From sequence record PQ850602.1: 40,176 bases of DNA; one strand, written 5' to 3'. The notes below the pieces were generated by a model, which ran no database searches, had not been told where the DNA came from, and was given only the letters and a program-made list of their open reading frames with translations. Shown piece after piece: positions 1 to 40,121 of the stretch. The translations under genes were made by a program, and so were the position numbers. How positions within the stretch are numbered: position 1 is the stretch's first letter; each line of letters starts with the position of its first letter. Source of the DNA: Escherichia phage EmilieLinder_Bas103.

Positions 1-204
1 ATGCTGTCTTTAGATTTTAACAACGAGGTAGTGAAGGCTGCTCCGATTGTAGGGACTGGTGTAGCAGATGGTGCTGCCAGACTATTTTGGGGGCTTTCAT
101 TAAACGAGTGGTTCTATATTGCTGCTATCGCCTACACAGTGGTTCAGATTGGTGCCAAGGTAGTCGATAAGATGATTGACTGGAAGAGAGCAAATAAGGA
201 GTGA
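1..204 (+). CDS. 17.5: Holin (T7 gp17.5-like, class II holin)
   Basis: 67-aa ORF with hydrophobic segments; near-identical to T7 gp17.5 from memory; stop TGA 202-204; RBS aggagg lies at window end (circular permutation). Confidence 0.9.
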   Translation: MLSLDFNNEVVKAAPIVGTGVADGAARLFWGLSLNEWFYIAAIAYTVVQIGAKVVDKMIDWKRANKE

Positions 205-209
205 TACGT

Positions 210-479
210 ATGGAAAAGGATAAGAGCCTTATTACATTCTTAGAGATGTTGGACACTGCGATGGCTCAGCGTATGCTTGCGGACCTTTCGGACCCTGAGC
301 GCCGCTCTCCGCAACTCTATAACGCCATCAACAAACTGTTAGACCGCCACAAGTTCCAGATTGGTAAGTTGCAGCCGGATGTTCACATCTTGGGTGGCCT
401 TGCTGGTGCTCTTGAAGAGTACAAAGAGAAAGTCGGTGATAACGGTCTTACGGATGACGATATTTACACTTTACAGTGA
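210..479 (+). CDS. 18: Terminase small subunit / DNA maturation protein A (gp18)
   Basis: 89-aa ORF starting MEKDKSLITFLEML at ATG 210 (ORF track starts at upstream GTG 201); matches T7 gp18. Confidence 0.9.
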   Translation: MEKDKSLITFLEMLDTAMAQRMLADLSDPERRSPQLYNAINKLLDRHKFQIGKLQPDVHILGGLAGALEEYKEKVGDNGLTDDDIYTLQ

Positions 480-481
480 TA

Positions 482-545
482 TACTCAAGGCCACTACCTA
501 TAGTGGTCTTTATGGATGTCATTGTCTATACGAGATGCTCCTACG
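482..545 (+). promoter_or_regulatory. RNase III processing hairpin R18.5
   Basis: Imperfect hairpin ACTCAAGGCCACTACCTATAGTGGTCTTTATGGATG typical of T7 RNase III sites; position between genes 18 and 18.5. Confidence 0.5.
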
Positions 546-573
546 TGAAATCTGAAAGTTAACGGGAGGCATT

Positions 574-1017
574 ATGCTGCAATTTTTACGTAAGCTAATC
601 CCTTGGGTTCTCGCTGGGATGCTATTCGGGTTAGGATGGCATCTAGGGTCAGACTCAATGGACGCTAAATGGAAACAGGAGGTACACAATGAGTACGTTA
701 AGAGAGTTGAGGCTACGGCGAGCACTCAAAGAGCAATCAATGAAATATCGGCTAAGTATCAAGAAGACCTTGCCGCGCTGGAAGGGAGCACTGATAGGAT
801 TATTTCTGATTTGCGTAGCGACAATAAGCGGTTGCGCGTCAGAGTCAAAACTACCGGAGCCTCCGATGGTCAGTGTGGATTCGAGCCTGATGGTCGAGCC
901 GAACTTGACGACCGAGATGCTAAGCGTATTCTCGCAGTGACCCAGAGGGGCGACGCATGGATTCGTGCGTTACAGGATACTATTCGTGAACTGCAACATA
1001 AGCAGGAAATCAAGTAA
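574..1017 (+). CDS. 18.5: Inner-membrane spanin / Rz-like lysis protein (gp18.5)
   Basis: 147-aa ORF with N-terminal TM segment and coiled-coil; matches T7 gp18.5. Confidence 0.9.
   Translation: MLQFLRKLIPWVLAGMLFGLGWHLGSDSMDAKWKQEVHNEYVKRVEATASTQRAINEISAKYQEDLAALEGSTDRIISDLRSDNKRLRVRVKTTGASDGQCGFEPDGRAELDDRDAKRILAVTQRGDAWIRALQDTIRELQHKQEIK
689..940 (+). CDS. 18.7: Outer-membrane spanin / Rz1-like lipoprotein (gp18.7), embedded in 18.5 in another frame
   Basis: 83-aa ORF fully inside 18.5 in +1 frame; lipobox-like ...ATISGC followed by Pro-rich region; T7 gp18.7 is 83 aa. Confidence 0.75.
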   Translation: MSTLRELRLRRALKEQSMKYRLSIKKTLPRWKGALIGLFLICVATISGCASESKLPEPPMVSVDSSLMVEPNLTTEMLSVFSQ

Positions 1018-1026
1018 GGAGGCAAC

Positions 1027-2787
1027 GTGTCTACTCAAGCCAATCGTAATGCGCTCGTAGTGGCGCAACTGAAAGGAGACTTCGTGGCGTTCCTGTTCGT
1101 CTTATGGAAGGCGTTAAACCTTCCGGTGCCAACTAAGTGTCAGATTGACATGGCTAAGGTACTGGCGAATGGAGAAAACAAGAAGTTTATCCTACAGGCT
1201 TTCCGTGGTATCGGTAAGTCATTCATCACATGTGCGTTCGTTGTGTGGTCCTTATGGAGAGACCCTCAGTTGAAGATACTTATCGTATCAGCCTCTAAGG
1301 AACGTGCAGACGCTAACTCCATCTTCATTAAGAACATCATTGACCTTCTACCGTTCCTAGCTGAGTTAAAGCCAAGACCCGGACAGCGTGATTCTGTAAT
1401 CAGCTTTGACGTTGGCCCAGCTAAACCTGACCACTCTCCTAGTGTTAAATCGGTGGGTATCACTGGTCAGTTAACTGGTAGCCGTGCTGACATTATCATT
1501 GCGGATGACGTTGAGATTCCGTCGAATAGTGCAACTATGGGTGCCCGTGAGAAGCTATGGACTCTGGTTCAGGAGTTCGCTGCGTTACTTAAACCGCTGC
1601 CTTCCTCTCGCGTTATCTACCTTGGTACACCTCAGACCGAGATGACTCTCTATAAGGAACTTGAGGATAACCGTGGGTACACCACTATCATCTGGCCTGC
1701 TCTGTACCCAAGGACGCGTGAAGAGAACCTCTATTACGCACAGCGTCTTGCTCCTATGTTACGCGCTGAGTACGATGAGAACCCTGAGGCACTCGCTGGG
1801 ACTCCTACGGACCCTGTGCGCTTTGACCGTGATGACCTGCGTGAGCGTGAGTTGGAATACGGTAAGGCTGGCTTCACACTACAGTTCATGCTTAACCCGA
1901 ACCTGAGTGATGCCGAGAAGTACCCTCTGAGGCTCCGTGACGCTATCGTAGCGGCCTTAGACTTAGAGAAGGCCCCAATGCATTACCAGTGGCTTCCGAA
2001 CCGTCAGAACATCATTGAGGACCTTCCTAACGTGGGTCTTAAAGGTGATGACCTGCATACCTATCATGATTGTTCCAACAACTCAGGTCAGTATCAACAG
2101 AAGATTCTGGTCATTGACCCTAGTGGTCGCGGTAAGGACGAAACAGGTTACGCTGTGCTGTACACCTTGAACGGTTACATCTACCTTATGGAAGCTGGAG
2201 GTTTCCGTGATGGCTACTCCGATAAGACCCTTGAGTTGCTCGCTAAGAAAGCGAAGCAATGGGGAGTCCAGACGGTTGTCTATGAGAGTAACTTCGGTGA
2301 TGGTATGTTCGGTAAGGTATTCAGTCCTATCCTTCTTAAACACCACAACTGTGCGATGGAAGAGATTCGTGCTCGTGGTATGAAGGAGATGCGTATTTGT
2401 GATACCCTTGAGCCAGTCATGCAGACTCACCGCCTTGTCATTCGTGATGAGGTCATTAGGGCCGACTATCAGTCCGCTCGTGATGTAGACGGTAAGCATG
2501 ACATTAAGTATTCACTGTTCTACCAGATGACCCGTATCACCCGTGATAAAGGCGCTCTGGCTCACGATGACCGATTAGATGCCCTTGCGTTAGGCGTTGA
2601 GTATCTCCGTGAGTCCATGCAGTTGGATTCCATTAAGGTCGAAGGTGAAGTGCTTGCTGACTTCCTTGAGGAGCACATGATGCGTCCTACAGTGTCTGCC
2701 ACGCACATCATTGAGATGTCTGTGGGAGGGGTTGATGTGTACTCTGAGGACGATGAGGGTTACGGTACGTCTTTCATTGAGTGGTGA
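1027..2787 (+). CDS. 19: Terminase large subunit / DNA maturation protein B (gp19)
   Basis: 586-aa ORF, GTG start after RBS taaggagg; Walker-type ATPase and nuclease regions; near-identical to T7 gp19 (586 aa). Confidence 0.95.
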
Positions 2788-2866
2788 TTTATGCAGTAGG
2801 ATTGCATAGGGATTCATTAGAGACCACGGAAGGTCGATTTTTAAGTTATTGAATATAAAGAGAAAT

Positions 2867-2889
2867 CAATTCGACTCACTATAGGGAGA
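2867..2889 (+). promoter_or_regulatory. T7 RNAP promoter phiOR
   Basis: CAATTCGACTCACTATAGGGAGA, close match to 23-bp T7 promoter consensus; +1 G about 2884; upstream of gene 19.5. Confidence 0.8.
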
Positions 2890-3043
2890 GGAGGGACGAA
2901 AGGTTACTATATAGATACTGAATGAATACGTATAGAGTGCATAAAGTATGCATAGTAGTGTACCTAAAGTGACCTCTAAGAATGGTGATTATATTATATT
3001 AATATCACCTTAACTTAAAGACCAACATAAAGGGAGGAGACTA

Positions 3044-3193
3044 ATGTTCCGCTTATTGTTGAACCTATTGCGGCATAGAGTCACCTACCGCTTTCTTATG
3101 GTACTTTGTGCTGCCATTGGGTACGCATCGCTTACTGGAGACCTCAGTTCACTGGAGTCTACCGTTTGCTCTTTACTCACTTGTAGCGATTAG
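3044..3193 (+). CDS. 19.5: gp19.5-like small protein
   Basis: 49-aa ORF MFRLLLNLLRHRVTYRF... with RBS agggaggag; absent from ORF track (<60 aa); matches T7 gp19.5 from memory. Confidence 0.7.
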   Translation: MFRLLLNLLRHRVTYRFLMVLCAAIGYASLTGDLSSLESTVCSLLTCSD

Positions 3194-3432
3194 GGTCTTC
3201 CTGACCGACTGATGGCTCACCGAGGGATTCAGCGGTATGATTGCATCACACCACTTCATCCCTATAGAGTCAAGTCCTAAGGTATACCCATAAAGAGCCT
3301 CTAATGGTCTATCCTAAGGTCTATACCTAAAGATAGGCCATCCTATCAGTGTCACCTAAAGAGGGCCTTAGAGAGGGCCTAAGGAGTCCCTAGAGGGTCC
3401 TTTAAAATATACCATAAAAATCTGAGTGACTA

Positions 3433-3591
3433 TCTCACAGTGTACGGACCCAAAGTTCCCCCATAGGGGTCCCTAAAGCCCAGCCAATCACCTTGAGTCA
3501 ACTTTCAGTTGACTTTGAGGGTCCCTAAGGGTTGGGGTTGGTCCTTTGGGTTTGTCTTTGAGTGTTGCTTTGAGTGTCTCTTTGTGTCCCT
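3433..3591 (+). repeat. Terminal repeat (single copy, as at a concatemer junction); mature genome ends predicted here
   Basis: Begins TCTCACAGTGTACGGACC and ends ...GTGTCTCTTTGTGTCCCT, matching T7 160-bp direct terminal repeat from memory; only one copy in window, so repetition is inferred. Confidence 0.6.
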
Positions 3592-3602
3592 ATCTGTTAC
3601 AA

Positions 3603-3732
3603 CCTCCTAAAGTCACCTCCTAAAGTCACCTCCTAAAGTCACCTCCTAAAGTCACCTCCTAAAGTCACCTCCTAAAGTCACCTCCTAAAGTCACCTCCTA
3701 AAGTCACCTCCTAAAGTCACCTCCTAAAGTCA
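3603..3732 (+). repeat. Perfect tandem array: 10 x 13-bp unit CCTCCTAAAGTCA
   Basis: Directly counted 10 identical head-to-tail 13-bp units immediately right of the terminal repeat; T7 has irregular CCTAAAG-containing repeats here. Confidence 0.95.
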
Positions 3733-3893
3733 TTCCTACCGTCTACAGCCTAAAGCCTAAACCTAAAGACCCATCAAGTCAACGCCTATCTTAAAGTATC
3801 CTCTAAAGACCAGCCTAAAGCCTATCCCTAAAGCCTATCCTATAGATGCCCTGTTGTTGCCTATAAAGAGATAATCTTCAATCATTGTCTTTC

Positions 3894-3916
3894 TAATACG
3901 ACTCACTATAGAGAGA
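3894..3916 (+). promoter_or_regulatory. T7 RNAP promoter phiOL (variant, GAG at +1..+3)
   Basis: TAATACGACTCACTATAGAGAGA; one change from consensus in the initiating region. Confidence 0.7.
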
Positions 3917-6820: not shown

Positions 6821-9472
6821 ATGAACACGATTAACATCGCTAAGAACGACTTCTCTGACATCGAACTGGCTGCTATCCCGTTCAACACTCTGGCTGACCA
6901 TTACGGTGAGCGTTTAGCTCGCGAACAGTTGGCCCTTGAGCATGAGTCTTATGAAATGGGTGAAGCACGCTTCCGCAAGATGTTTGAGCGTCAACTTAAA
7001 GCGGGTGAGGTTGCGGATAACGCTGCCGCTAAGCCTCTCATTACTACTCTGCTCCCCAAGATGATTGCACGCATCAACGATTGGTTTGAGGAAGTGAAAG
7101 CTAAGCGCGGTAAGCGCCCGACAGCCTTCCAGTTCCTGCAAGAAATCAAGCCGGAAGCGATAGCGTACATCACCATTAAGACAACTCTGGCTTGCCTAAC
7201 GAGCGTAGACAATACAACCGTTCAGGCTGTAGCAAGTGCAATCGGTCGAGCTATTGAGGACGAGGCGCGCTTTGGTCGAATCCGTGACCTTGAAGCTAAG
7301 CACTTCAAGAAAAACGTTGAGGAACAACTTAACAAGCGCGTAGGGCACGTCTACAAGAAAGCATTCATGCAGGTTGTAGAAGCGGATATGCTCTCTAAGG
7401 GTCTACTTGGTGGCGAGGCGTGGTCTTCGTGGCATAAGGAAGACTCCATTCACGTTGGTGTGCGCTGCATTGAGATGCTCATTGAGTCCACCGGAATGGT
7501 TAACTTACATCGTCAAAATGCTGGCGTAGTAGGGCAAGACTCGGAGACTATCGAACTTGCACCGGAATACGCTGAGGCTATCGCAACCCGTGCAGGTGCG
7601 CTTGCTGGTATCTCTCCGATGTTCCAGCCTTGCGTAGTTCCTCCTAAACCGTGGACTGGTATTACTGGTGGTGGATATTGGGCTAACGGTCGTCGTCCTC
7701 TGGCACTGGTGCGTACTCACAGCAGGAAAGCACTGATGCGCTACGAAGACGTTTACATGCCTGAGGTGTACAAGGCGATTAACATTGCGCAAAACACCGC
7801 ATGGAAAATCAACAAGAAAGTCCTAGCGGTAGCCAACGTAATCACCAAGTGGAAGCATTGCCCTATAGAGGACATCCCAGCGATTGAACGTGAAGAACTC
7901 CCGATGAAACCGGAAGACATCGACACGAATCCTGAGGCTCTCGCTGCATGGAAACGTGCTGCTGCTGCTGTGTACCGCAAGGACAAGGCTCGCAAGTCTC
8001 GCCGTATCAGCTTAGAGTTCATGCTTGAGCAAGCCAACAAGTTCGCTAACCATAAGGCCATCTGGTTCCCTTACAACATGGACTGGCGCGGTCGCGTTTA
8101 CGCTGTGTCAATGTTCAACCCGCAAGGTAACGACATGACCAAAGGACTGCTGACGCTGGCTAAAGGAAAACCAATCGGCAAGGAAGGTTATTACTGGCTG
8201 AAAATCCACGGTGCAAACTGTGCTGGTGTCGATAAGGTTCCGTTCCCTGAGCGCATCAAGTTCATTGAGGACAACCATGAGAACATCATGGCTTGCGCTA
8301 AGTCTCCACTGGAGAACACTTGGTGGGCTGAGCAAGATTCTCCGTTCTGCTTCCTCGCGTTCTGCTTTGAGTACGCTGGGGTACAGCACCACGGCTTAAG
8401 CTACAACTGCTCTCTTCCGCTGGCGTTCGATGGGTCTTGCTCTGGCATTCAGCACTTCTCCGCTATGCTCCGAGATGAGGTTGGTGGTCGCGCTGTTAAC
8501 CTTCTGCCTAGCGAAACCGTTCAGGACATCTACGGGATTGTCGCTAAGAAAGTCAATTTGATTCTGCAAGAAGACGTAATCAACGGAACCGACAACGAAG
8601 TAGTTACCGTGACTGATGAGAACACTGGTGAAATCTCTGAGAAAGTCAAGCTGGGCACTAAGGCGCTGGCTGGTCAGTGGTTGGCTTACGGTGTAACACG
8701 TAGCGTGACTAAACGTTCAGTAATGACTCTGGCTTACGGGTCCAAAGAGTTCGGCTTCCGTCAACAAGTGCTGGAGGACACCATTCAGCCAGCAATTGAT
8801 TCCGGTAAGGGTCTGATGTTCACGCAACCGAATCAGGCTGCTGGATACATGGCGAAACTGATTTGGGAAGCTGTTAGCGTTACGGTGGTAGCCGCTGTGG
8901 AGGCAATGAACTGGCTCAAGTCCGCTGCTAAGCTGCTGGCTGCTGAGGTCAAAGATAAGAAGACTGGAGAGATTCTTCGCAAGCGTTGCGCTGTACATTG
9001 GGTAACTCCTGATGGGTTCCCAGTGTGGCAGGAATACAAGAAGCCAATTCAGACTCGCTTGAACCTGATTTTCCTCGGTCAGTTCCGCTTACAGCCAACC
9101 ATTAACACTAACAAGGATAGCGAGATTGATGCACACAAACAGGAGTCCGGTATTGCTCCTAACTTTGTACACAGCCAAGACGGTAGTCACCTGCGTAAGA
9201 CTGTAGTGTGGGCGCATGAGAAGTACGGCATCGAGTCTTTTGCATTGATTCACGACTCCTTCGGGACCATTCCGGCTGACGCTGCTAACCTGTTCAAAGC
9301 TGTTCGCGAAACTATGGTGGACACCTATGAGTCTTGTGATGTACTGGCTGACTTCTATGACCAGTTCGCTGACCAGTTGCATGAGTCTCAACTTGACAAA
9401 ATGCCAGCACTTCCGGCTAAAGGTAACTTGAACCTCCAAGACATCCTTAAGTCAGACTTCGCGTTTGCGTAA
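6821..9472 (+). CDS. 1: T7-type single-subunit DNA-dependent RNA polymerase (gp1)
   Basis: 883-aa ORF, about 98 percent identical to T7 RNAP from memory; specificity-loop ...QPNQAAGYM... (Asn as in T7), consistent with the T7-type promoters in this window. Confidence 0.98.
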   Translation: MNTINIAKNDFSDIELAAIPFNTLADHYGERLAREQLALEHESYEMGEARFRKMFERQLKAGEVADNAAAKPLITTLLPKMIARINDWFEEVKAKRGKRPTAFQFLQEIKPEAIAYITIKTTLACLTSVDNTTVQAVASAIGRAIEDEARFGRIRDLEAKHFKKNVEEQLNKRVGHVYKKAFMQVVEADMLSKGLLGGEAWSSWHKEDSIHVGVRCIEMLIESTGMVNLHRQNAGVVGQDSETIELAPEYAEAIATRAGALAGISPMFQPCVVPPKPWTGITGGGYWANGRRPLALVRTHSRKALMRYEDVYMPEVYKAINIAQNTAWKINKKVLAVANVITKWKHCPIEDIPAIEREELPMKPEDIDTNPEALAAWKRAAAAVYRKDKARKSRRISLEFMLEQANKFANHKAIWFPYNMDWRGRVYAVSMFNPQGNDMTKGLLTLAKGKPIGKEGYYWLKIHGANCAGVDKVPFPERIKFIEDNHENIMACAKSPLENTWWAEQDSPFCFLAFCFEYAGVQHHGLSYNCSLPLAFDGSCSGIQHFSAMLRDEVGGRAVNLLPSETVQDIYGIVAKKVNLILQEDVINGTDNEVVTVTDENTGEISEKVKLGTKALAGQWLAYGVTRSVTKRSVMTLAYGSKEFGFRQQVLEDTIQPAIDSGKGLMFTQPNQAAGYMAKLIWEAVSVTVVAAVEAMNWLKSAAKLLAAEVKDKKTGEILRKRCAVHWVTPDGFPVWQEYKKPIQTRLNLIFLGQFRLQPTINTNKDSEIDAHKQESGIAPNFVHSQDGSHLRKTVVWAHEKYGIESFALIHDSFGTIPADAANLFKAVRETMVDTYESCDVLADFYDQFADQLHESQLDKMPALPAKGNLNLQDILKSDFAFA

Positions 9473-11699: not shown

Positions 11700-11960
11700 A
11701 TGTTTCGACTTCATTACAACAAAAGTCTTGAGAATTTCACGGTTCGCCGTGTTGACCGTTCAATCGTATGTGCGAGCGAGCGCCGAGCTAAGTTACCTCT
11801 TATTGGTAACACAGTTCCTTTGGCACCGAGCGTCCACATCATTATCACCCGTGGTGACTTTGAGAAAGCAATAGACAAGAAACGTCCGGTTCTTAGTGTG
11901 GCAGTGACCCGCTTCCCGTTCGTCCGTCTGTTACTCAAACGAATCAAGGAGGTGTTCTGA
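11700..11960 (+). CDS. 1.6: gp1.6-like protein
   Basis: 86-aa [34 protein letters not shown]...; matches T7 gp1.6. Confidence 0.85.
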
Positions 11961-17648: not shown

Positions 17649-19607
17649 ATGATCGTTTCTGACATCGAAGCTAACGCCCTCTTAGAGAGCGTCACTAAGT
17701 TCCACTGCGGGGTTATCTACGACTACTCCACCGCTGAGTACGTAAGCTACCGTCCGAGTGACTTCGGTGCGTATCTGGATGCGCTGGAAGCCGAGGTTGC
17801 ACGAGGCGGTCTTATTGTGTTCCACAACGGTCACAAGTATGACGTGCCTGCATTGACCAAACTGGCAAAGTTGCAATTGAACCGAGAGTTCCACCTTCCT
17901 CGTGAGAACTGTATTGACACCCTTGTGCTGTCACGCTTGATTCACTCTAACCTGAAAGACACCGATATTGGTCTCCTGCGTTCCGGTAAGTTGCCGGGGA
18001 ACCGCTTTGGGTCTCACGCTTTGGAGGCGTGGGGTTATCGCTTAGGCGAAATGAAGGGTGAATACAAGGACGACTTTAAGCGTATGCTTGAAGAGCAAGG
18101 TGAAGAATACATTGATGGAATGGAGTGGTGGAACTTCAACGAAGAGATGATGGCCTATAACGTTCAGGACGTTGTGGTCACTAAAACTCTCCTTGAGAAG
18201 CTACTCTCTGACAAACATTACTTCCCTCCTGAGATTGACTTTACGGACGTAGGATACACTACGTTCTGGTCAGAATCCCTTGAGGCCGTTGACGTTGAAC
18301 ATCGTGCTGCATGGCTGCTCGCTAAGCAAGAGCGCAATGGGTTCCCGTTTGACACGAAAGCAATCGAAGAGTTGTACGTAGAGTTAGCTGCTCGCCGCTC
18401 TGAGTTGCTCCGTAAATTGACCGAAACGTTCGGCTCGTGGTATCAGCCTAAAGGTGGCACCGAAATGTTCTGCCATCCGAGGACTGGTAAGCCATTGCCT
18501 AAATACCCTCGCATTAAGATACCTAAAGTTGGTGGTATCTTTAAGAAGCCTAAGAACAAGGCACAGCGAGAAGGCCGTGAGCCTTGCGAACTGGACACCC
18601 GCGAGTACGTTGCTGGTGCTCCTTATACGCCAGTTGAGCACGTAGTGTTTAACCCATCGTCTCGTGACCACATTCAGAAGAAACTCCAAGAGGCTGGGTG
18701 GGTCCCCACGAAGTACACCGATAATGGTGCGCCTGTGGTGGACGATGAGGTACTCGAAGGAGTACGTGTAGATGACCCTGAGAAGCAAGCTGCCATCGAC
18801 CTCATTAAAGAGTACCTGATGATTCAGAAGCGAATCGGACAGTCTGCTGAGGGAGACAAGGCGTGGCTTCGTTACGTTGCTGAGGACGGTAAGATTCATG
18901 GTTCTGTTAATCCCAACGGCGCTGTTACTGGGCGCGCTACTCACGCTTTCCCTAACCTCGCACAAGTACCCGGTGTCCGTTCTCCTTATGGTGATAAGTG
19001 CCGCGCTGCTTTTGGCGCTGAACATCACCTAGACGGTATTACTGGTAAGCCTTGGGTTCAGGCTGGCATCGACGCATCCGGTCTGGAGCTACGCTGCTTG
19101 GCCCACTTCATGGCTCGCTTTGATAACGGTGAGTACGCTAGAGAGATTCTTCATGGCGACATCCACACTAAAAACCAGCTAGCTGCTGAATTACCTACCC
19201 GTGATAACGCAAAGACGTTCATCTATGGGTTCCTCTATGGTGCTGGCGATGAGAAGATTGGGCAGATTGTTGGTGCTGGTAAAGAGCGCGGTAAGGAACT
19301 CAAGAAGAAATTCCTTGAGAACACCCCCGCGATTGCAGCACTCCGCGAGTCTATCCAACAGACGCTTGTCGAGTCCTCTCAGTGGGTAGCTGGTGAGCAA
19401 CAAGTCAAGTGGAAACGCCGCTGGATTAAAGGTCTGGATGGTCGTAAGGTACACGTTCGTAGTCCTCACGCTGCCTTGAATACACTACTGCAATCTGCTG
19501 GTGCTCTTATCTGCAAACTGTGGATTATCAAGACCGAAGAGATGCTAGTAGAGAAAGGCTTGAAGCATGGCTGGGATGGGGACTTTGCGTACATGGCATG
19601 GGTGCAT
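17649..19607 (+). CDS. 5: DNA polymerase (gp5), exon 1 (codons 1-653, ends ...FAYMAWVH)
   Basis: Near-identical to T7 DNA polymerase residues 1-653 incl. exonuclease motifs and thioredoxin-binding region; reading frame is broken after His653 (motif C HDE) by an inserted element. Confidence 0.93.
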
Positions 19608-20208
19608 AAACTATCTCATTGTGCACATTAAATCTGGTGAACTCGGTGAAACCCTTCTGGGGCAATACCGAGCCAAGCCATAGGGAGGATATATGAGAGG
19701 CAAGAAGTTAATCCTTGCGGCCACAGAGAGTGGTTGTATCATCCCTACGTCGCACAAACTTAATGCTGATGGTTATTTCCGAAAGAAGACGAACGGTGTC
19801 CTAGAGATGTATCACAGGACAGTCTGGAAGGAACACTACGGAGATATACCAGAAGGGTATGAAGTAGACCACAAGTGTAGGAACAGGGCGTGCTGTAACG
19901 TAGAGCACCTCCGGTTACTAGAAGGTTCTGAGCATACAGTCAAGACAAACAGGGAACGCTACGCTGACCGTAAAGAGTCCGCGAAGGAATACTGGTTGGA
20001 GACTGGATGTACAGGGACACACTTAGGTGAGAAGTTTGGTGTAACGTTCTCTGCCGCTTGTAAGTGGATTAGAGAGTGGAAGGCGTAGAGACTATCCGAA
20101 AGGAGTAGGGCCGAGGGTGAGATTCCCTCGTTACCCGAAGCGCCAGACAGTCAACTCAAAGGCTGATGATATAGTCCGACACTCCTAGTAATGGGAGAAT
20201 ACAGAAAG
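19608..20208 (+). mobile_element. Group I intron (601 nt) in DNA polymerase gene 5, carrying an HNH homing endonuclease ORF
   Basis: Insertion exactly between codons His653 and Asp654 of an otherwise T7-colinear gp5; 5' exon ends in U, intron ends in G; intron GUGCAC (19621-19626) can pair with exon GUGCAU to form P1; 601 nt restores frame. Confidence 0.85.
19693..20088 (+). CDS. Intron-encoded HNH homing endonuclease (131 aa)
   Basis: Strong RBS gggagg 6 nt upstream; HNH motif EVDHKCRNRACCNVEHLRLLEGSEHTVKTN; C-terminal helix-turn-helix-like region. Confidence 0.85.
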   Translation: MRGKKLILAATESGCIIPTSHKLNADGYFRKKTNGVLEMYHRTVWKEHYGDIPEGYEVDHKCRNRACCNVEHLRLLEGSEHTVKTNRERYADRKESAKEYWLETGCTGTHLGEKFGVTFSAACKWIREWKA

Positions 20209-20364
20209 GATGAGATTCAAGTAGGTTGCCGTACCGAAGAGATTGCTCAGGTGGTCATTGATACCGCACAAGAAGCAATGCGCTGGGTTGGAGACCACTG
20301 GAACTTCCGGTGTCTTCTGGATACCGAAGGTAAGATTGGTCCTAACTGGGCCGTATGTCACTGA
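20209..20364 (+). CDS. 5: DNA polymerase (gp5), exon 2 (codons 654-704, DEIQVGCRTEEIAQVV...GPNWAVCH)
   Basis: Matches T7 gp5 C-terminus; joins exon 1 in frame once 19608-20208 is removed, giving 704 aa as in T7. Confidence 0.9.
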   Translation, partial: DEIQVGCRTEEIAQVVIDTAQEAMRWVGDHWNFRCLLDTEGKIGPNWAVCH

Positions 20365-20383
20365 TACTATAGGAGAAATTATT

Positions 20384-20686
20384 ATGGCTATCACCAAGAA
20401 ATTTAAAGTGTCCTTTGATGTTACCGCTGTAATTACTAGTGAAGGTGAACGAAACCTACAAGACTACGTCATGCGAGTTGCCAAGGCAGTAGCCGCTGGT
20501 GAACAAGTTGATGACTTTAAGAAAGAGTTGCTTGTCCAAGCGTTGACGAATGGTCCTGAGGGCCTCGCTACGTTCCTGATTAAGCATGGACTTCGCTCCT
20601 TCGTTAAGGATAGCTACAATGACATGAGCGAGTCTGAGCGTAAACTGATTCGACTCTCTCCTGCAACTGTACGGGAGGTGTTCTGA
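20384..20686 (+). CDS. 5.5: gp5.5-like protein (T7 gp5.5 binds host H-NS); divergent core
   Basis: 100-aa ORF MAITKKFKVSFDVTA... ...SPATVREVF with RBS aggaga; termini match T7 gp5.5, middle differs; ORF track starts in gene 5 exon 2 at 20243. Confidence 0.8.
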   Translation: MAITKKFKVSFDVTAVITSEGERNLQDYVMRVAKAVAAGEQVDDFKKELLVQALTNGPEGLATFLIKHGLRSFVKDSYNDMSESERKLIRLSPATVREVF

Positions 20687-37784: not shown

Positions 37785-39581
37785 ATGGCTAACGTAATTA
37801 AAACCGTTTTGACTTACCAGTTAGATGGCTCCAAGCGTGATTTTAATATCCCGTTTGAGTATCTAGCCCGTAAGTTCGTAGTGGTAACTCTTATTGGCGT
37901 AGACCGAAAGGTACTTACGATTAATACAGACTACCGTTTTGCTACGCGTACTACCATATCACTGACCAAGGCTTGGGGTCCAGCCGATGGCTACACGACC
38001 ATCGAGTTACGTCGAGTAACCTCCACGACCGACAGATTGGTTGACTTTACGGATGGTTCAATCCTCCGTGCGTATGACCTCAACGTTGCTCAGATTCAAA
38101 CAATGCATGTAGCAGAAGAGGCCCGTGACCTTACTGCTGATACCATCGGTGTCAATAATGATGGTCACTTGGATGCCCGTGGTCGTAAGATTGTGAACCT
38201 AGCGTTCGCTACTGGCGACTATGATGCTGTTCCTCTGAAGCAGATTAAGGAACGTGAGAACTCTGCGTGGAACGCTGTTATTAAATCTGACGAACACGCT
38301 AACCGCTCCAACAGGGAAGCCAACCGCTCACACGACGAAGCTGACCGCGCGAAACGTGAAGCTGACCGCTCAACCCAACAGGCAGGTGCCTCTACGGCAC
38401 AGGCAGTTGAGTCCAAAACGCAAGCTGACCGTTCCAACTCTGAGGCCAACCGTGCTAAAGGTTATGCCGATAGTATGACCGCAAGTGTCGCTGAGGCCAA
38501 GAAGCAAGCTGACCGTTCCAACTCTGAGGCCAATCGTGCCCGTGATGAGGCAAATCGTGCTGCCGGAGAAGTGACTAAGGCTGCTGCTGAGGTTGCTAAA
38601 GCTGCTGCACATGTTGAGACAGCTAATGGACATGCTGACCGTGCTAACACTGAGGCAAACCGCTCTAAGAGTGAAGCTGACCGAGCCACTAACGAGGCCA
38701 ACAAGCTAGGTAGTATGAATGCACTTGCAGGGGCGGTTAGGGGAGTAAGTCCAGACCACTCCGTAGAGTGGGCATCTAATGCCGCGTTTAATGGCGAAAT
38801 TTCTAATAAGCGATCTATAACCTTAATGTCACCTGCTACTACTAACTCTATGGGTCAGATGGTTCATGAGTATGATGGTACTGACGGGCAATACGTATCA
38901 AATACATATTGGGCCATTAAGCACCCACACAGAGGGGATTGGCACATTCCGTATAAGGTTATAAACATACCTAACGACTCTACAGCATGGGAGATGCACT
39001 TCGGGGACTTAATGCGTTGTTTTAATGGATTGAGGGTCGAAGCATATAATAAACCACTAGGTGTTCACAATGGGGCTAATACAGGAGTGAATACCATCAC
39101 GTATGGACCGGGTGATTTAGGCCAAGGTGTGTGGGTATGCAACACCAGATGGAGTTTCTACGACGCAGGGTTAGAAATTGGATGGGTTCGCGGCGGCTCT
39201 ACTAATGGTAACGGCCTAATCAGGTGGAAACCAGAATCATCGCAATCCACGTATCACGATATTTGGCTAAACCCCAATGGCGAGGTGCAATTCCCAGCTG
39301 CGATTAAGGCAGGTGGTGCCACGGTCGCCGTTGATGGTAACATTGGCGGCTCTATCTGGGGTGGTCATCTATACGGATGGCTTAGAGAAAACACAGTCAA
39401 CCACATTTCGATGGGTGGTGTTAACTTGTCGCAGCTATGGAGGGCTGGAGGTGTTTCTGATGGCGGTGGTAAGGTGATAACTGGTATTATAAACTCGAAC
39501 GGCGATGAGCTGGTTGATGTATGCCAATGGCGAGTAATGCAATACGTCCGTAATAATGGACAACGTTTCAATATTTACTGA
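37785..39581 (+). CDS. 17: Tail fiber protein (gp17), chimeric: T7-like N-terminal domain, non-T7 shaft and distal domain
   Basis: 598-aa ORF; residues about 1-150 match T7 gp17 (MANVIKTVLTYQLDGS...DARGR), remainder differs and is 45 aa longer; shaft has repeated ADRSNSEANRA motifs. Confidence 0.93.
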   Translation: MANVIKTVLTYQLDGSKRDFNIPFEYLARKFVVVTLIGVDRKVLTINTDYRFATRTTISLTKAWGPADGYTTIELRRVTSTTDRLVDFTDGSILRAYDLNVAQIQTMHVAEEARDLTADTIGVNNDGHLDARGRKIVNLAFATGDYDAVPLKQIKERENSAWNAVIKSDEHANRSNREANRSHDEADRAKREADRSTQQAGASTAQAVESKTQADRSNSEANRAKGYADSMTASVAEAKKQADRSNSEANRARDEANRAAGEVTKAAAEVAKAAAHVETANGHADRANTEANRSKSEADRATNEANKLGSMNALAGAVRGVSPDHSVEWASNAAFNGEISNKRSITLMSPATTNSMGQMVHEYDGTDGQYVSNTYWAIKHPHRGDWHIPYKVINIPNDSTAWEMHFGDLMRCFNGLRVEAYNKPLGVHNGANTGVNTITYGPGDLGQGVWVCNTRWSFYDAGLEIGWVRGGSTNGNGLIRWKPESSQSTYHDIWLNPNGEVQFPAAIKAGGATVAVDGNIGGSIWGGHLYGWLRENTVNHISMGGVNLSQLWRAGGVSDGGGKVITGIINSNGDELVDVCQWRVMQYVRNNGQRFNIY

Positions 39582-39593
39582 TAGGAGGACAAT

Positions 39594-40121
39594 ATGGGAA
39601 CTTTACGTCACTATAAGAATTTCGTAAATTATACTCCAGAACGCACCAAAGAGAATGCAGACCTTCTAGACCACGGAGTCGGTTTCTCAAAGGACGAGAA
39701 TGGAAATGACTGGTATGAACTTCGCGAGACATTTCGCGAGGACACATGGAAACTTGTCTATGCTAAAGATGGGTCAGTTATCCAGTGTGAACAGGATGTT
39801 CAGGAGTTAGCCGTTCAGGGTTCTGCTGGGGTAGTTGAACTTGAGGAAATCCCTGCTGAGTACTCTCGGCATACTATGATGCAGTGGTGGTGGGACGGTG
39901 AGAAGCTCACTTGGTATCCAAGATACTTTGAGTACCAGAAGGCTCGTCTAATCGCTATGGCCTCCAAGAAGATTGAGCAGTATGCTGACTTTATGGCACT
40001 TGGGGAGGAGGGATTAGAAGGTCTACTAAATGCGTGGCGAGCCTATCGCCTTGCTGTATATAAAGTGGACCTAAGTGTTCTACCTTTTTACGATTGGCCT
40101 GAGAAGCCTGAGGACTTATAA
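39594..40121 (+). CDS. Tail fiber assembly chaperone (lambda Tfa / Mu gpU family)
   Basis: 175-aa ORF with RBS taggagg; C-terminal motif LLNAWRAYRLAVYKVDLSVLPFYDWPEKP resembles lambda Tfa ...[29 protein letters not shown] and Mu U (recalled); no T7 equivalent. Confidence 0.8.
   Translation: MGTLRHYKNFVNYTPERTKENADLLDHGVGFSKDENGNDWYELRETFREDTWKLVYAKDGSVIQCEQDVQELAVQGSAGVVELEEIPAEYSRHTMMQWWWDGEKLTWYPRYFEYQKARLIAMASKKIEQYADFMALGEEGLEGLLNAWRAYRLAVYKVDLSVLPFYDWPEKPEDL

What the first reader, a model, noticed from the sequence alone, without database searches (positions are those of the whole stretch)
19608..20208. Group I intron with HNH homing endonuclease splitting DNA polymerase gene 5 at catalytic motif C
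The gene 5 frame stops 8 codons after ...FAYMAWVH (TAA 19629-19631). The missing T7 C-terminus DEIQVGCRTEEIAQVV...CH resumes at 20209 in another frame. The gap is 601 nt, which restores the frame and gives 704 aa as in T7. The last exon nucleotide is U and the last intron nucleotide is G, and intron GUGCAC (19621-19626) can pair with exon GUGCAU to form a P1 helix with the U.G pair at the splice site. Inside is a free-standing ORF (19693-20088) with its own GGGAGG RBS and an HNH motif (DHKCRNRACCNVEHL...EH). An essential replicase therefore depends on self-splicing. The insertion sits in the conserved HDE motif C, a typical homing site. I recall reports of group I introns in DNA polymerase genes of a few T7-like phages, but cannot verify identity with them here.
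Basis: partly seen in the sequence, partly recalled or inferred. Interest (0 to 1): 0.85.

Follow-up and report, generated by a model that had tools for sequence, protein, structure and literature searches.

The report
Known self-splicing intron in T7-like polymerase gene

Summary
Gene 5 exon 1 (17649-19607) ends in GTGCAT. A 601-nt insert (19608-20208) follows. Exon 2 (20209-20364) starts with GATGAG. An intron-less relative lacks precisely these 601 nt. The joined exons give a 704-aa protein that aligns end to end with T7 DNA polymerase.

The insert folds as a group I intron. On 16 diverged homologues my hand model is 97% paired, against 35-48% in register-shifted controls, and 27 of 61 pairs show compensatory changes, covering P1, P10, P3-P9 and the P3/P7 pseudoknot. 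P7.1 and P7.2 joined by GUA match the published IA2 criterion. Rfam's group I model matches full length at E=1.8e-6 but scores 33 bits, below its gathering score of 50. An ORF-less relative scores 59.

The 131-aa ORF sits in P6a. It is an HNH_3 protein, 87% identical without gaps to I-TslI of phage PhiI, and is under purifying selection.

This is not new. The PhiI and W31 introns are also 601 nt with a 131-aa ORF at the same site. The 13a and Bas104 records (99.0% and 99.5% identical across the intron) already annotate gene 5 as a join. Interest is low.

The parts
17649..19607 (+). Gene 5 (DNA polymerase) exon 1: 653 codons, ending ...AWVH (GTG CAT).
   Evidence: ORF list. Pfam DNA_pol_A on the unspliced ORF stops at profile position 326/381. 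Boundary fixed by alignment with the intron-less allele.
19608..20208 (+). Group I intron, 601 nt, with IA2-type architecture and no P2. It starts AAACUAU and ends GAAAG (terminal G).
   Evidence: Clean 601-nt insertion relative to phage JacobBurckhardt. Rfam RF00028 full-length match at 33.1 bits, E=1.8e-6. Covariation test. RNAalifold.
19602..19626 (+). P1. Exon GUGCAU (19602-19607) pairs with the internal guide GUGCAC (19621-19626), with U.G at the 5' splice site. CUCAUU (19615-19620) is the P10 guide.
   Evidence: 100% of cells paired in 15 homologues. The first pair is G-C in 12 and A-U in 3.
20209..20214 (+). P10 partner: the first six bases of exon 2 (GAUGAG) pair with CUCAUU at 19615-19620.
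   Evidence: 92% of cells paired. Two of the six pairs show compensatory changes, e.g. C-G in the window against U-A where exon 2 reads GAUGAA.
19633..19674 (+). 5' half of the core: P3 5' strand UCUGGUG (19633-19639), P4 UCGGU (19643-19647) with ACCGA (19667-19671), P5 CCC (19652-19654) with GGG (19660-19662), and P6 5' strand GCC (19672-19674).
   Evidence: P3 has 5 of 7 pairs with compensatory changes, P4 2 of 5, P5 2 of 3, P6 1 of 3. All four helices are 100% paired. Coordinates.
19678..20079 (+). P6a (CCAU 19678-19681 with GUGG 20076-20079), enclosing the ribosome binding site and the endonuclease ORF.
   Evidence: By eye, three homologues carry ACUG/CAGU instead. The tool count is only 80% paired, because an indel misaligns four sequences. 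This is the least certain helix. An ORF in P6a matches what is published for PhiI and W31.
19683..19688 (+). Shine-Dalgarno-like GGGAGG, 4 nt upstream of the ORF's ATG.
   Evidence: Read directly from the sequence. A GGAG core is conserved in this position in all homologues.
19693..20088 (+). Intron ORF of 131 aa: an HNH homing endonuclease and an allele of I-TslI. Its last codons (W K A stop) form the 3' strands of P6a and P6.
   Evidence: Pfam HNH_3 E=1.5e-17. PHROG 6254 E=2.7e-46. 114/131 identical without gaps to I-TslI of phage PhiI, AAV53690.1. dN/dS 0.07-0.22.
20082..20198 (+). 3' half of the core: P6 3' GGC (20082-20084), P7 5' GACUAU (20090-20095), P7.1 CCGAAAGG (20096-20103), AGUA linker, P7.2 (20108-20136), P3 3' CGCCAGA (20141-20147), P8 (20148-20165), P7 3' AUAGUC (20171-20176), P9 (20182-20197).
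   Evidence: Compensatory changes in P7 (2 pairs, from the Arash intron), P7.2 (4 pairs), P8 (4 pairs) and P9 (4 pairs). GAUAUAGUC matches the Rfam consensus exactly. Coordinates.
20209..20364 (+). Gene 5 exon 2: 51 codons (DEIQVGCRTEE...AVCH) plus the stop codon.
   Evidence: The spliced product is 704 aa. It is colinear with T7 DNA polymerase structures. Pfam DNA_pol_A then extends to profile position 380/381.

Best explanation
This is a mobile group I intron with IA2-type architecture, inserted between the His and Asp codons of the VHDE stretch of motif C in gene 5 of a T7-like phage. It is an allele of the PhiI/W31 DNA polymerase intron.

Inferred mechanism:

1. T7 RNA polymerase transcribes gene 5 together with the intron.
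2. The intron RNA folds into the group I core: P3-P9, the P3/P7 pseudoknot, and the P7.1/P7.2 extension.
3. The internal guide CUCAUU-GUGCAC aligns the two exons through P1 and P10.
4. An external guanosine attacks after the exon U at 19607. The freed exon end then attacks after the terminal intron G at 20208.
5. The exons are joined to read ...VH-DE..., so a full 704-aa polymerase can be translated.
6. The ORF in the P6a loop is translated from its own ribosome binding site into a 131-aa HNH endonuclease of the I-TslI type.
7. In mixed infections this enzyme cuts or nicks intron-less gene 5 alleles near the insertion site. Repair from the intron-bearing allele copies in the intron and short flanking exon tracts (homing).

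Shown here: the exact insertion, the restored reading frame, the RNA fold by covariation, the HNH family membership and the close identity to I-TslI, purifying selection on the ORF, and a mosaic pattern that indicates horizontal transfer.

Inferred from the literature on PhiI and W31: actual self-splicing, endonuclease activity and mobility.
For: - **Insertion.** A clean 601-nt insertion relative to an intron-less relative.
- **Product.** The spliced product is 704 aa and aligns 1-704 with T7 DNA polymerase. DNA_pol_A profile coverage rises from 326/381 to 380/381 after splicing.
- **Rfam.** RF00028 matches full length at E=1.8e-6. A related intron without a long ORF, in phage Arash, scores 58.9 bits, above the gathering score of 50.
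- **Covariation on 16 homologues.** 97.2% of cells are paired, against 34.6-47.5% when partners are slid by 1-3 columns. 27 of 61 pairs carry changes on both sides, against 3-9 in the slid controls. None of 500 shuffles reaches the observed values.
- **Independent prediction.** RNAalifold recovers P1, P3, P4, P5, P7.1, P7.2, P8 and P9.
- **Endonuclease.** HNH_3 at 63.4 bits. 87% identity to I-TslI of PhiI. 50% identity, E=8e-31, to the free-standing gp5.3 HNH of phiYeO3-12. dN/dS 0.07-0.22.
- **Transfer.** The intron is 92-100% identical to those of BUCT788 and Kayfunavirus PDP351P3, while the flanking exons are only about 50-70% identical.
- **Literature.** The PhiI and W31 introns are 601 nt with a 131-aa ORF named I-TslI (PMC1995217). 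They are IA2, have the ORF in P6a, sit at Pol I site 881, and splice in vivo and in vitro (PMC3428280 citing Bonocora and Shub 2004). I-TslI is listed among intron-encoded nicking enzymes that drive intron mobility (PMC8845596).
- **Existing annotation.** The 13a, Bas104, Bas102 and K1F records annotate the polymerase as a two-piece join.
Against: - The window's intron does not reach Rfam's curated gathering score: 33.1 against 50 bits, with no hit in gathering mode. The likely cause is the roughly 400-nt ORF insertion, but I could not rescore the ORF-deleted sequence.
- P6a is only 80% paired in the tool count because of alignment indels.
- Splicing, cleavage and homing were not measured for this sequence. 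The window's endonuclease differs from the characterised PhiI enzyme at 17 of 131 residues.
- The two primary papers (Bonocora and Shub 2004 and 2009) were not held. Their content is taken from citing papers and from memory.
Confidence: 0.95

Rival explanations
1. The intron splices, but its endonuclease is no longer a working homing enzyme. It might be fixed and immobile, or retained for another role such as helping splicing or excluding competing phages.
For: No activity was measured here. The protein differs from characterised I-TslI at 17 of 131 residues. Homing endonuclease genes often decay after fixation (general knowledge, reviewed in PMC3984707).
Against: The ORF is intact at 131 aa and has the HNH_3 motif. 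dN/dS of 0.07-0.22 across lineages shows continuing selection on the protein. Near-identical introns in diverged polymerase backgrounds indicate recent transfer. Only about 55 of about 694 related phage records carry the full intron, so empty target sites remain plentiful.
Confidence: 0.08
2. There is no splicing. The polymerase is made as two polypeptides that assemble: a 660-aa N-terminal piece ending ...VHKLSHCAH, and a 57-aa piece from the ATG at 20191.
For: Both ORFs exist. Several GenBank records annotate two separate polymerase CDSs.
Against: - The split would separate His from Asp-Glu inside catalytic motif C.
- The ATG at 20191 lies inside P9 and has no Shine-Dalgarno sequence. It reads ATA in 13a, HZP2, Bas102, PC192 and L004, where the change keeps the P9 pair (U-A instead of U.G).
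- Strong covariation shows that the RNA fold is what selection preserves.
- Homologous introns are reported to splice.
Confidence: 0.02
3. The insert is a different kind of element: an intein, a group II intron, an insertion-sequence or IStron-like element, or a free-standing endonuclease gene that has disrupted the polymerase gene.
For: None specific. These are the generic alternatives for a gene interrupted at a conserved motif.
Against: - The insert shifts the reading frame (601 = 3n+1) and carries stop codons in the gene 5 frame, which rules out an intein.
- The boundaries show no target-site duplication.
- In the E-value scan of 19400-20400 the only family below E=0.1 is group I (E=1.8e-6). 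The other two matches, ACA64 (E=1.5) and archaeal RNase P (E=0.72), are at chance level.
- The group I helices covary.
Confidence: 0.005

Closest known systems
[quoted passage not shown]
   Same: Same gene and same insertion site (Pol I position 881, H|DE). Same intron length (601 nt) and ORF length (131 aa). ORF in P6a, HNH family, IA2-type architecture without P2. The protein is 87% identical to PhiI I-TslI with no gaps.
   Different: This is an allelic variant of the 13a type, with 17 amino-acid differences from PhiI I-TslI. Synonymous divergence from the PhiI-like Bas102 allele is high (dS about 1.2), while the ribozyme parts are almost unchanged. I could not align the nucleotides with AY769989 or AY769990 because they are not in the collections.
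Annotated introns of phages 13a (EU734174), AnnaIndermaur_Bas104 (PQ850595) and JeanTinguely
   Same: 99.0% (13a) and 99.5% (Bas104) nucleotide identity over all 601 nt. Gene 5 is annotated as a two-piece join with an internal endonuclease CDS in 13a and Bas104. The whole genome is 98% identical to Bas104 and JeanTinguely.
   Different: A handful of point differences. For example, the window has G at 20193 where 13a has A, giving a U.G rather than a U-A pair in P9.
Phage K1F (Kayfunavirus) gene 5 intron with its 'gp5.3' homing endonuclease
   Same: Same site, same architecture and a 131-aa ORF. Noted in the literature as a putative group I intron (PMC4925675). The record annotates the polymerase as a join.
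   Different: About 80% nucleotide identity. The intron is 598 nt, and P10 is shorter.
Free-standing HNH endonuclease gene 5.3 of T3 and phiYeO3-12, next to an intron-less gene 5
   Same: Homologous protein: 50% identity over residues 6-89, E=8e-31. From my memory of Bonocora and Shub 2009, it cuts intron-less polymerase genes at the same position as I-TslI.
   Different: It is not inside an intron and lacks the C-terminal 40 or so residues. The window has no gene 5.3: gene 5.5 starts at 20384, directly after gene 5.
HNH-encoding group I introns in other phage DNA polymerase genes: SPO1 I-HmuI, SP82 I-HmuII, Bastille I-BasI, Pf-WMP3 I-PfoP3I
   Same: Group I intron plus HNH (nicking) endonuclease in a family A polymerase gene. 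Pf-WMP3 is also IA2, lacks P2 and has its ORF in P6a.
   Different: A different insertion site (Pol I position 674 or 676 against 881) and unrelated intron and ORF sequences. No PDB chain was detectable by sequence for the window ORF.

Membership tests
Group I intron (Rfam RF00028) | Score at or above the curated gathering threshold of the Rfam covariance model | tested here: not met
   33.1 bits against a gathering score of 50. There is no hit in gathering mode. In E-value mode the match covers model positions 1-253 at E=1.8e-6. A core homologue without the long ORF (Arash) scores 58.9, so the shortfall is most likely the insertion penalty for the roughly 400-nt ORF. I could not rescore an ORF-deleted sequence.
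Group I intron | 5' exon ends in U, which forms a U.G wobble pair with the internal guide in P1 | tested here: met
   U at 19607 pairs with G at 19621. U.G is present in 15 of 15 same-site homologues. P1 is 100% paired, with a G-C to A-U compensatory change in three sequences.
Group I intron | Terminal G at the 3' end of the intron, and a P10 pairing between the guide and the 3' exon | tested here: met
   G at 20208. All 16 aligned introns end in G. P10 (CUCAUU with GAUGAG) is 92% paired and has two pairs with compensatory changes.
Group I intron | Conserved core helices P3-P9, including the P3/P7 pseudoknot | tested here: met
   P3, P4, P5, P6, P7, P8 and P9 are 96-100% paired, and each has compensatory changes. 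Overall 97.2% of cells are paired against 35-48% in the slid controls, and no shuffle out of 500 reaches this. RNAalifold independently finds the nested helices.
Group I intron | Guanosine-dependent self-splicing | not testable with these tools
   Reported for the PhiI and W31 introns in vivo and in vitro (PMC3428280 citing Bonocora and Shub 2004). Not measured for this sequence.
Subgroup IA2 | Extra helices P7.1 and P7.2 between P7 and P3', joined by G-U-A (criterion as worded in PMC3428280) | tested here: met
   P7.1 is CCGAAAGG (20096-20103), followed by A-GUA and then P7.2 (20108-20136). P7.2 has four pairs with compensatory changes. P7.1 never varies, so it says nothing either way.
HNH endonuclease (Pfam HNH_3, PF13392) | Score above the Pfam gathering cut-off, with the His/Asn/His motif present | tested here: met
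   63.4 bits against 24.8, E=1.5e-17, residues 40-82. The motif DHKCRNRACCNVEHL is intact. PHROG 6254 'HNH endonuclease' matches at E=2.7e-46.
I-TslI (intron-encoded homing endonuclease of PhiI and W31) | Orthology: same length, same intron position, high identity to AAV53690.1 | tested here: met
   131 aa against 131 aa, 114/131 identical with no gaps. The close 13a allele falls in the same 90% cluster as AAV53690.1.
I-TslI / homing endonuclease | Site-specific cleavage or nicking of the intron-less allele, and ORF-dependent intron mobility | not testable with these tools
   There is indirect support only: purifying selection and near-identical introns in diverged exon backgrounds.

The most novel reading that the evidence does not exclude
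This intron lineage may be a pan-family parasite of motif C in family A polymerases. Full-length homologues sit at the same H|DE site in Autographiviridae of several genera, in 77-kb Gordonclarkvirinae phages, in a 112-kb Vibrio phage (Grimontviridae), and in Klebsiella, Edwardsiella and Aeromonas phages. A related core sits at a different polymerase site in the 180-kb Salmonella phage Arash.

Within this lineage, the window's 13a-type endonuclease allele and the PhiI-type allele have nearly saturated synonymous divergence, yet share an almost identical ribozyme. That pattern could reflect competing endonuclease specificities or repeated ORF exchange, as with SPO1 and SP82, rather than simple descent.
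Probability: 0.15. Interest if true: 0.35.

Novelty: already known. Interest (0 to 1): 0.1.

Why it matters
For the scan this is a validated positive control. A reader without tools identified the intron, its splice sites, the P1 pairing and the homing endonuclease correctly from raw sequence.

Biologically it adds little. The element was described in 2004 and 2009 and is annotated in near-identical genomes.

It has two practical uses.

1. Annotation. Many GenBank records of related phages still list the polymerase as two separate CDSs or as a truncated gene. The exact splice coordinates and the helix map given here could be transferred to them.
2. Model building. The 16-sequence alignment with 27 covarying pairs would support a dedicated covariance model for ORF-containing introns of this type, which Rfam's general model misses at its gathering score.

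Tried and rejected
- **Rfam at gathering threshold.** No hit anywhere in the window. The group I match appears only in E-value mode.
- **Hairpin hiding the ribosome binding site.** I tested the idea that GAGGAU pairs with AUCCUU in codons 7-9. Folding 19672-19735 gives z=-0.32 against shuffles and the minimum-energy structure does not contain that pairing. Idea dropped.
- **Phage promoter inside the intron.** The stretch CAAUACCGAGCCAAGCCAUAGGGAGGA looks superficially like a T7 promoter. No T7-promoter match with up to 3 mismatches lies in 19608-20208, while ten such promoters are found elsewhere. The endonuclease gene is therefore presumably transcribed as part of the gene 5 transcript.
- **Solved structures related to the ORF by sequence.** None found. 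The only hit is a chance match at E=0.13.
- **Primary papers.** Bonocora and Shub 2004 (PMC529087) and 2009 (PMC2856452) are not held. I relied on citing papers and on memory.
- **Exact-sequence look-up of the window ORF.** It is not in the protein collection. The link to I-TslI was made through the cluster of the 13a allele.
- **IMG/VR scan with the ORF.** Only 4 loci were returned. The phage GenBank collection was far richer.
- **Separate 57-aa C-terminal polypeptide.** Rejected because its ATG is not conserved.
- **P6a column counts.** They are unreliable because MAFFT misplaces a 7-nt indel in four sequences. I judged this helix by eye only.

Full report
**What the window is.** The 40,176-base window is a complete genome of a T7-like phage (Teseptimavirus). 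It is 98% identical over 95-98% of its first 25 kb to Escherichia phages AnnaIndermaur_Bas104 and JeanTinguely, and about 92% identical to T7. It is circularly permuted relative to the T7 map, with the terminase gene at 1027-2787 and the RNA polymerase gene at 6821-9472.

**Checking the observation.**
- The gene 5 ORF starts at 17649 and reads ...FAYMAWVH, with CAT at 19605-19607. It continues KLSHCAH and stops at TAA 19629-19631.
- The missing C-terminus DEIQVGCRTEEIAQVV...AVCH begins at 20209, in a frame shifted by +1.
- The gap 19608-20208 is 601 nt.
- Alignment with the intron-less relative JacobBurckhardt, and with phage 13a, shows a clean 601-nt insertion between ...GGGTACAC and GATGAA.... 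There is no target-site duplication, and the boundaries cannot slide.
- Joining the exons gives 653 + 51 = 704 codons.
- The product matches T7 DNA polymerase chains residue 1-704 to 1-704 in one stretch, at 1631 bits.
- The Pfam DNA_pol_A match extends to profile position 380/381 after splicing, against 326/381 for the unspliced ORF.
- The insertion lies between the His and Asp codons of VHDE. From established knowledge, T7 Asp654 and Glu655 (Klenow Asp882 and Glu883) are the motif C residues. A citing paper places the PhiI and W31 introns at E. coli Pol I site 881.

**Is it a group I intron?** Rfam's general model RF00028 finds nothing at its gathering score. With permissive filters it matches 19598-20198 over the whole model (1-253) at 33.1 bits, E=1.8e-6. 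About 400 nt of ORF are treated as an insertion, and the P7 3' element GAUAUAGUC matches the consensus exactly.

Because that score is sub-threshold, I tested the fold by comparative analysis. A blastn search with the intron found 115 phage records, and 55 of them cover at least 80% of it. I fetched 16 diverged representatives:
- 13a, HZP2, Bas102 and PC192;
- K1F, Ro45lw and CHRF_10037;
- two IMG/VR contigs;
- Aeromonas PT2, Klebsiella RCIP0053 and Edwardsiella DT115P1;
- the 77-kb Gordonclarkvirinae phages ECBP2 and PAS59;
- the 112-kb Vibrio phage Vp_R1;
- the intron of Salmonella phage Arash, which has a related core but sits at a different site.

I removed the ORF and aligned the rest.

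My hand model, in window coordinates:

| Helix | 5' strand | 3' strand |
|---|---|---|
| P1 | 19602-07 | 19621-26 |
| P10 | 19615-20 | 20209-14 |
| P3 | 19633-39 | 20141-47 |
| P4 | 19643-47 | 19667-71 |
| P5 | 19652-54 | 19660-62 |
| P6 | 19672-74 | 20082-84 |
| P6a | 19678-81 | 20076-79 |
| P7 | 20090-95 | 20171-76 |

The hairpins are P7.1 (20096-103), P7.2 (20108-36), P8 (20148-65) and P9 (20182-97).

Results of the pair count:
- 97.2% of cells are paired, against 34.6-47.5% when the 3' partners are slid by 1-3 columns.
- 27 of 61 pairs change on both sides, against 3-9 in the slid controls.
- None of 500 shuffles reaches any of the observed measures.
- P1, P10, P3, P4, P5, P6, P7, P7.2, P8 and P9 each contain compensatory changes.

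RNAalifold, which knows nothing of my model, recovers P1, P3, P4, P5, P7.1, P7.2, P8 and P9.

P7.1 and P7.2 joined by A-GUA fit the IA2 criterion quoted in PMC3428280. The window has no P2, although three homologues carry a P2 hairpin. The Arash intron has only a short hairpin in P6a and scores 58.9 bits with Rfam. This supports the view that the window's low score is an insertion penalty.

P6a is the weakest helix. It is 80% paired in the tool count because of a misaligned indel. By eye, CCAU/GUGG in the window corresponds to ACUG/CAGU in three sequences.

**Exon bases covary with the guide.** Intron-bearing alleles read GTGCAT|GATGAG. Those reading GATGAA have UUCAUU in the guide in place of CUCAUU. 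The intron-less allele reads GTACAC|GATGAA, which would lack the splice-site U and would mispair in P1 and P10. This fits co-conversion of short exon tracts during homing.

**The ORF.**
- 19693-20088 encodes 131 aa, preceded by GGGAGG. It passes Pfam HNH_3 at 63.4 bits against a cut-off of 24.8 and matches PHROG 6254.
- Its last codons (W-K-A-stop) form the 3' strands of P6a and P6, and the stop codon abuts P7.
- The 13a allele clusters at 90% identity with AAV53690.1, 'I-TslI [Phage PhiI]'. The window protein is 114/131 identical to it, with no gaps.
- It is 50% identical (E=8e-31) to the free-standing gp5.3 HNH of phiYeO3-12, which lies just downstream of an intron-less gene 5. From memory, this matches Bonocora and Shub 2009, who proposed that an endonuclease and an intron targeting the same site later merged.
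- The window has no gene 5.3.
- dN/dS is 0.07-0.22, so the protein is under selection.
- No T7-type promoter lies inside the intron. A hairpin hiding the ribosome binding site is not supported.

**Evidence of mobility.** The intron is 92-100% identical to those of BUCT788 and Kayfunavirus PDP351P3. Their polymerase exons are only about 50-70% identical to the window's, rising to about 80% in the 50 nt next to the intron. About 55 of about 694 related records carry the full intron.

**Comparison with what is known.**
- PMC1995217 tabulates the PhiI and W31 DNA polymerase introns as 601 nt with a 131-aa HNH ORF named I-TslI. These are the same numbers as here.
- PMC3428280 summarises Bonocora and Shub 2004: IA2, ORF in P6a, site 881, efficient splicing in vivo and in vitro.
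- PMC8845596 lists I-TslI among intron-encoded nicking enzymes that catalyse intron mobility.
- PMC4925675 notes the K1F intron.
- The GenBank records of 13a (2008), K1F, Bas102 and Bas104 annotate the polymerase as a two-piece join with an internal endonuclease. The window's intron is 99.0% identical to that of 13a and 99.5% identical to that of Bas104.

**Rivals.**
- A two-polypeptide polymerase is rejected. The 57-aa ORF's ATG lies inside P9, lacks a ribosome binding site, and reads ATA in the closest relatives, where the change preserves the P9 pair.
- An intein is excluded by the frame shift and the stop codons.
- A decayed, immobile endonuclease is unlikely given the purifying selection and the mosaicism, but it cannot be excluded without an assay.

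**Verdict.** The novelty rating is 'already known' and interest is low (0.1). The only mildly open points lie outside the finding itself. One is the breadth of this intron lineage across unrelated phage families at the same polymerase site. The other is the deep synonymous divergence between endonuclease alleles that share a nearly identical ribozyme.

Noticed in passing
window 37785-40121: A 598-aa tail fibre gene is followed by a 175-aa ORF (39594-40121) that matches the lambda gpK-type tail fibre assembly protein family (Caudo_TAP, E=7.9e-10). From memory, T7 itself has no such gene. This fibre-tip plus assembly-protein module is absent from the window's closest whole-genome relatives in the search. 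It is 92.8% identical to Cedecea phage Yanou, which suggests a swap of the receptor-binding module.
   Followed up: partly
L017 860-1130 (Salmonella phage Arash, OQ632216): A 271-nt group I intron with a core closely related to the window's intron. It has a P2 hairpin, and P6a is closed by a short hairpin holding only a 16-codon remnant ORF. It scores 58.9 bits with Rfam, above the gathering score. It interrupts a family A polymerase at a different site (..SVTF|GLLYG..). The record annotates the two halves as 'DNA polymerase nu' and 'DNA polymerase theta'.
   Followed up: partly
L012, L015, L014, L013, L016, L011 (ECBP2, PAS59, Vp_R1, RCIP0053, DT115P1, Aeromonas PT2): Full-length homologues of the intron and its HNH ORF sit at the same H|DE site in polymerase genes of phages well outside the T7 group: 77-kb Gordonclarkvirinae, a 112-kb Vibrio phage, and Klebsiella, Edwardsiella and Aeromonas phages. 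Most of these records annotate two separate polymerase CDSs or hypothetical proteins rather than a spliced gene.
   Followed up: partly
window 19693-20085 compared with L008 386-778 (Bas102, PhiI-type allele): The two endonuclease alleles differ at nearly saturated synonymous sites (dS about 1.2, dN/dS 0.07), while the flanking ribozyme segments differ at only a few positions. The ORF and the ribozyme may therefore have different histories or be under different constraints.
   Followed up: partly
window 1-3900: The window is a circular permutation of the T7 gene order. It begins in the 17.5/18/18.5/19 region (DNA_Packaging_2 at 201-479, an Rz-like lysis gene at 574-1017, terminase at 1027-2787). 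The genome's left-end early region follows. The terminal repeat is presumably collapsed into a single copy.
   Followed up: no
window 11700-11957: An 86-aa ORF, in what I take from memory to be the position of T7 gene 1.6, matches the Pfam family named 'Bladder cancer-related protein BC10' (PF06726, E=1.2e-22). That is an odd family name for a phage early gene.
   Followed up: no
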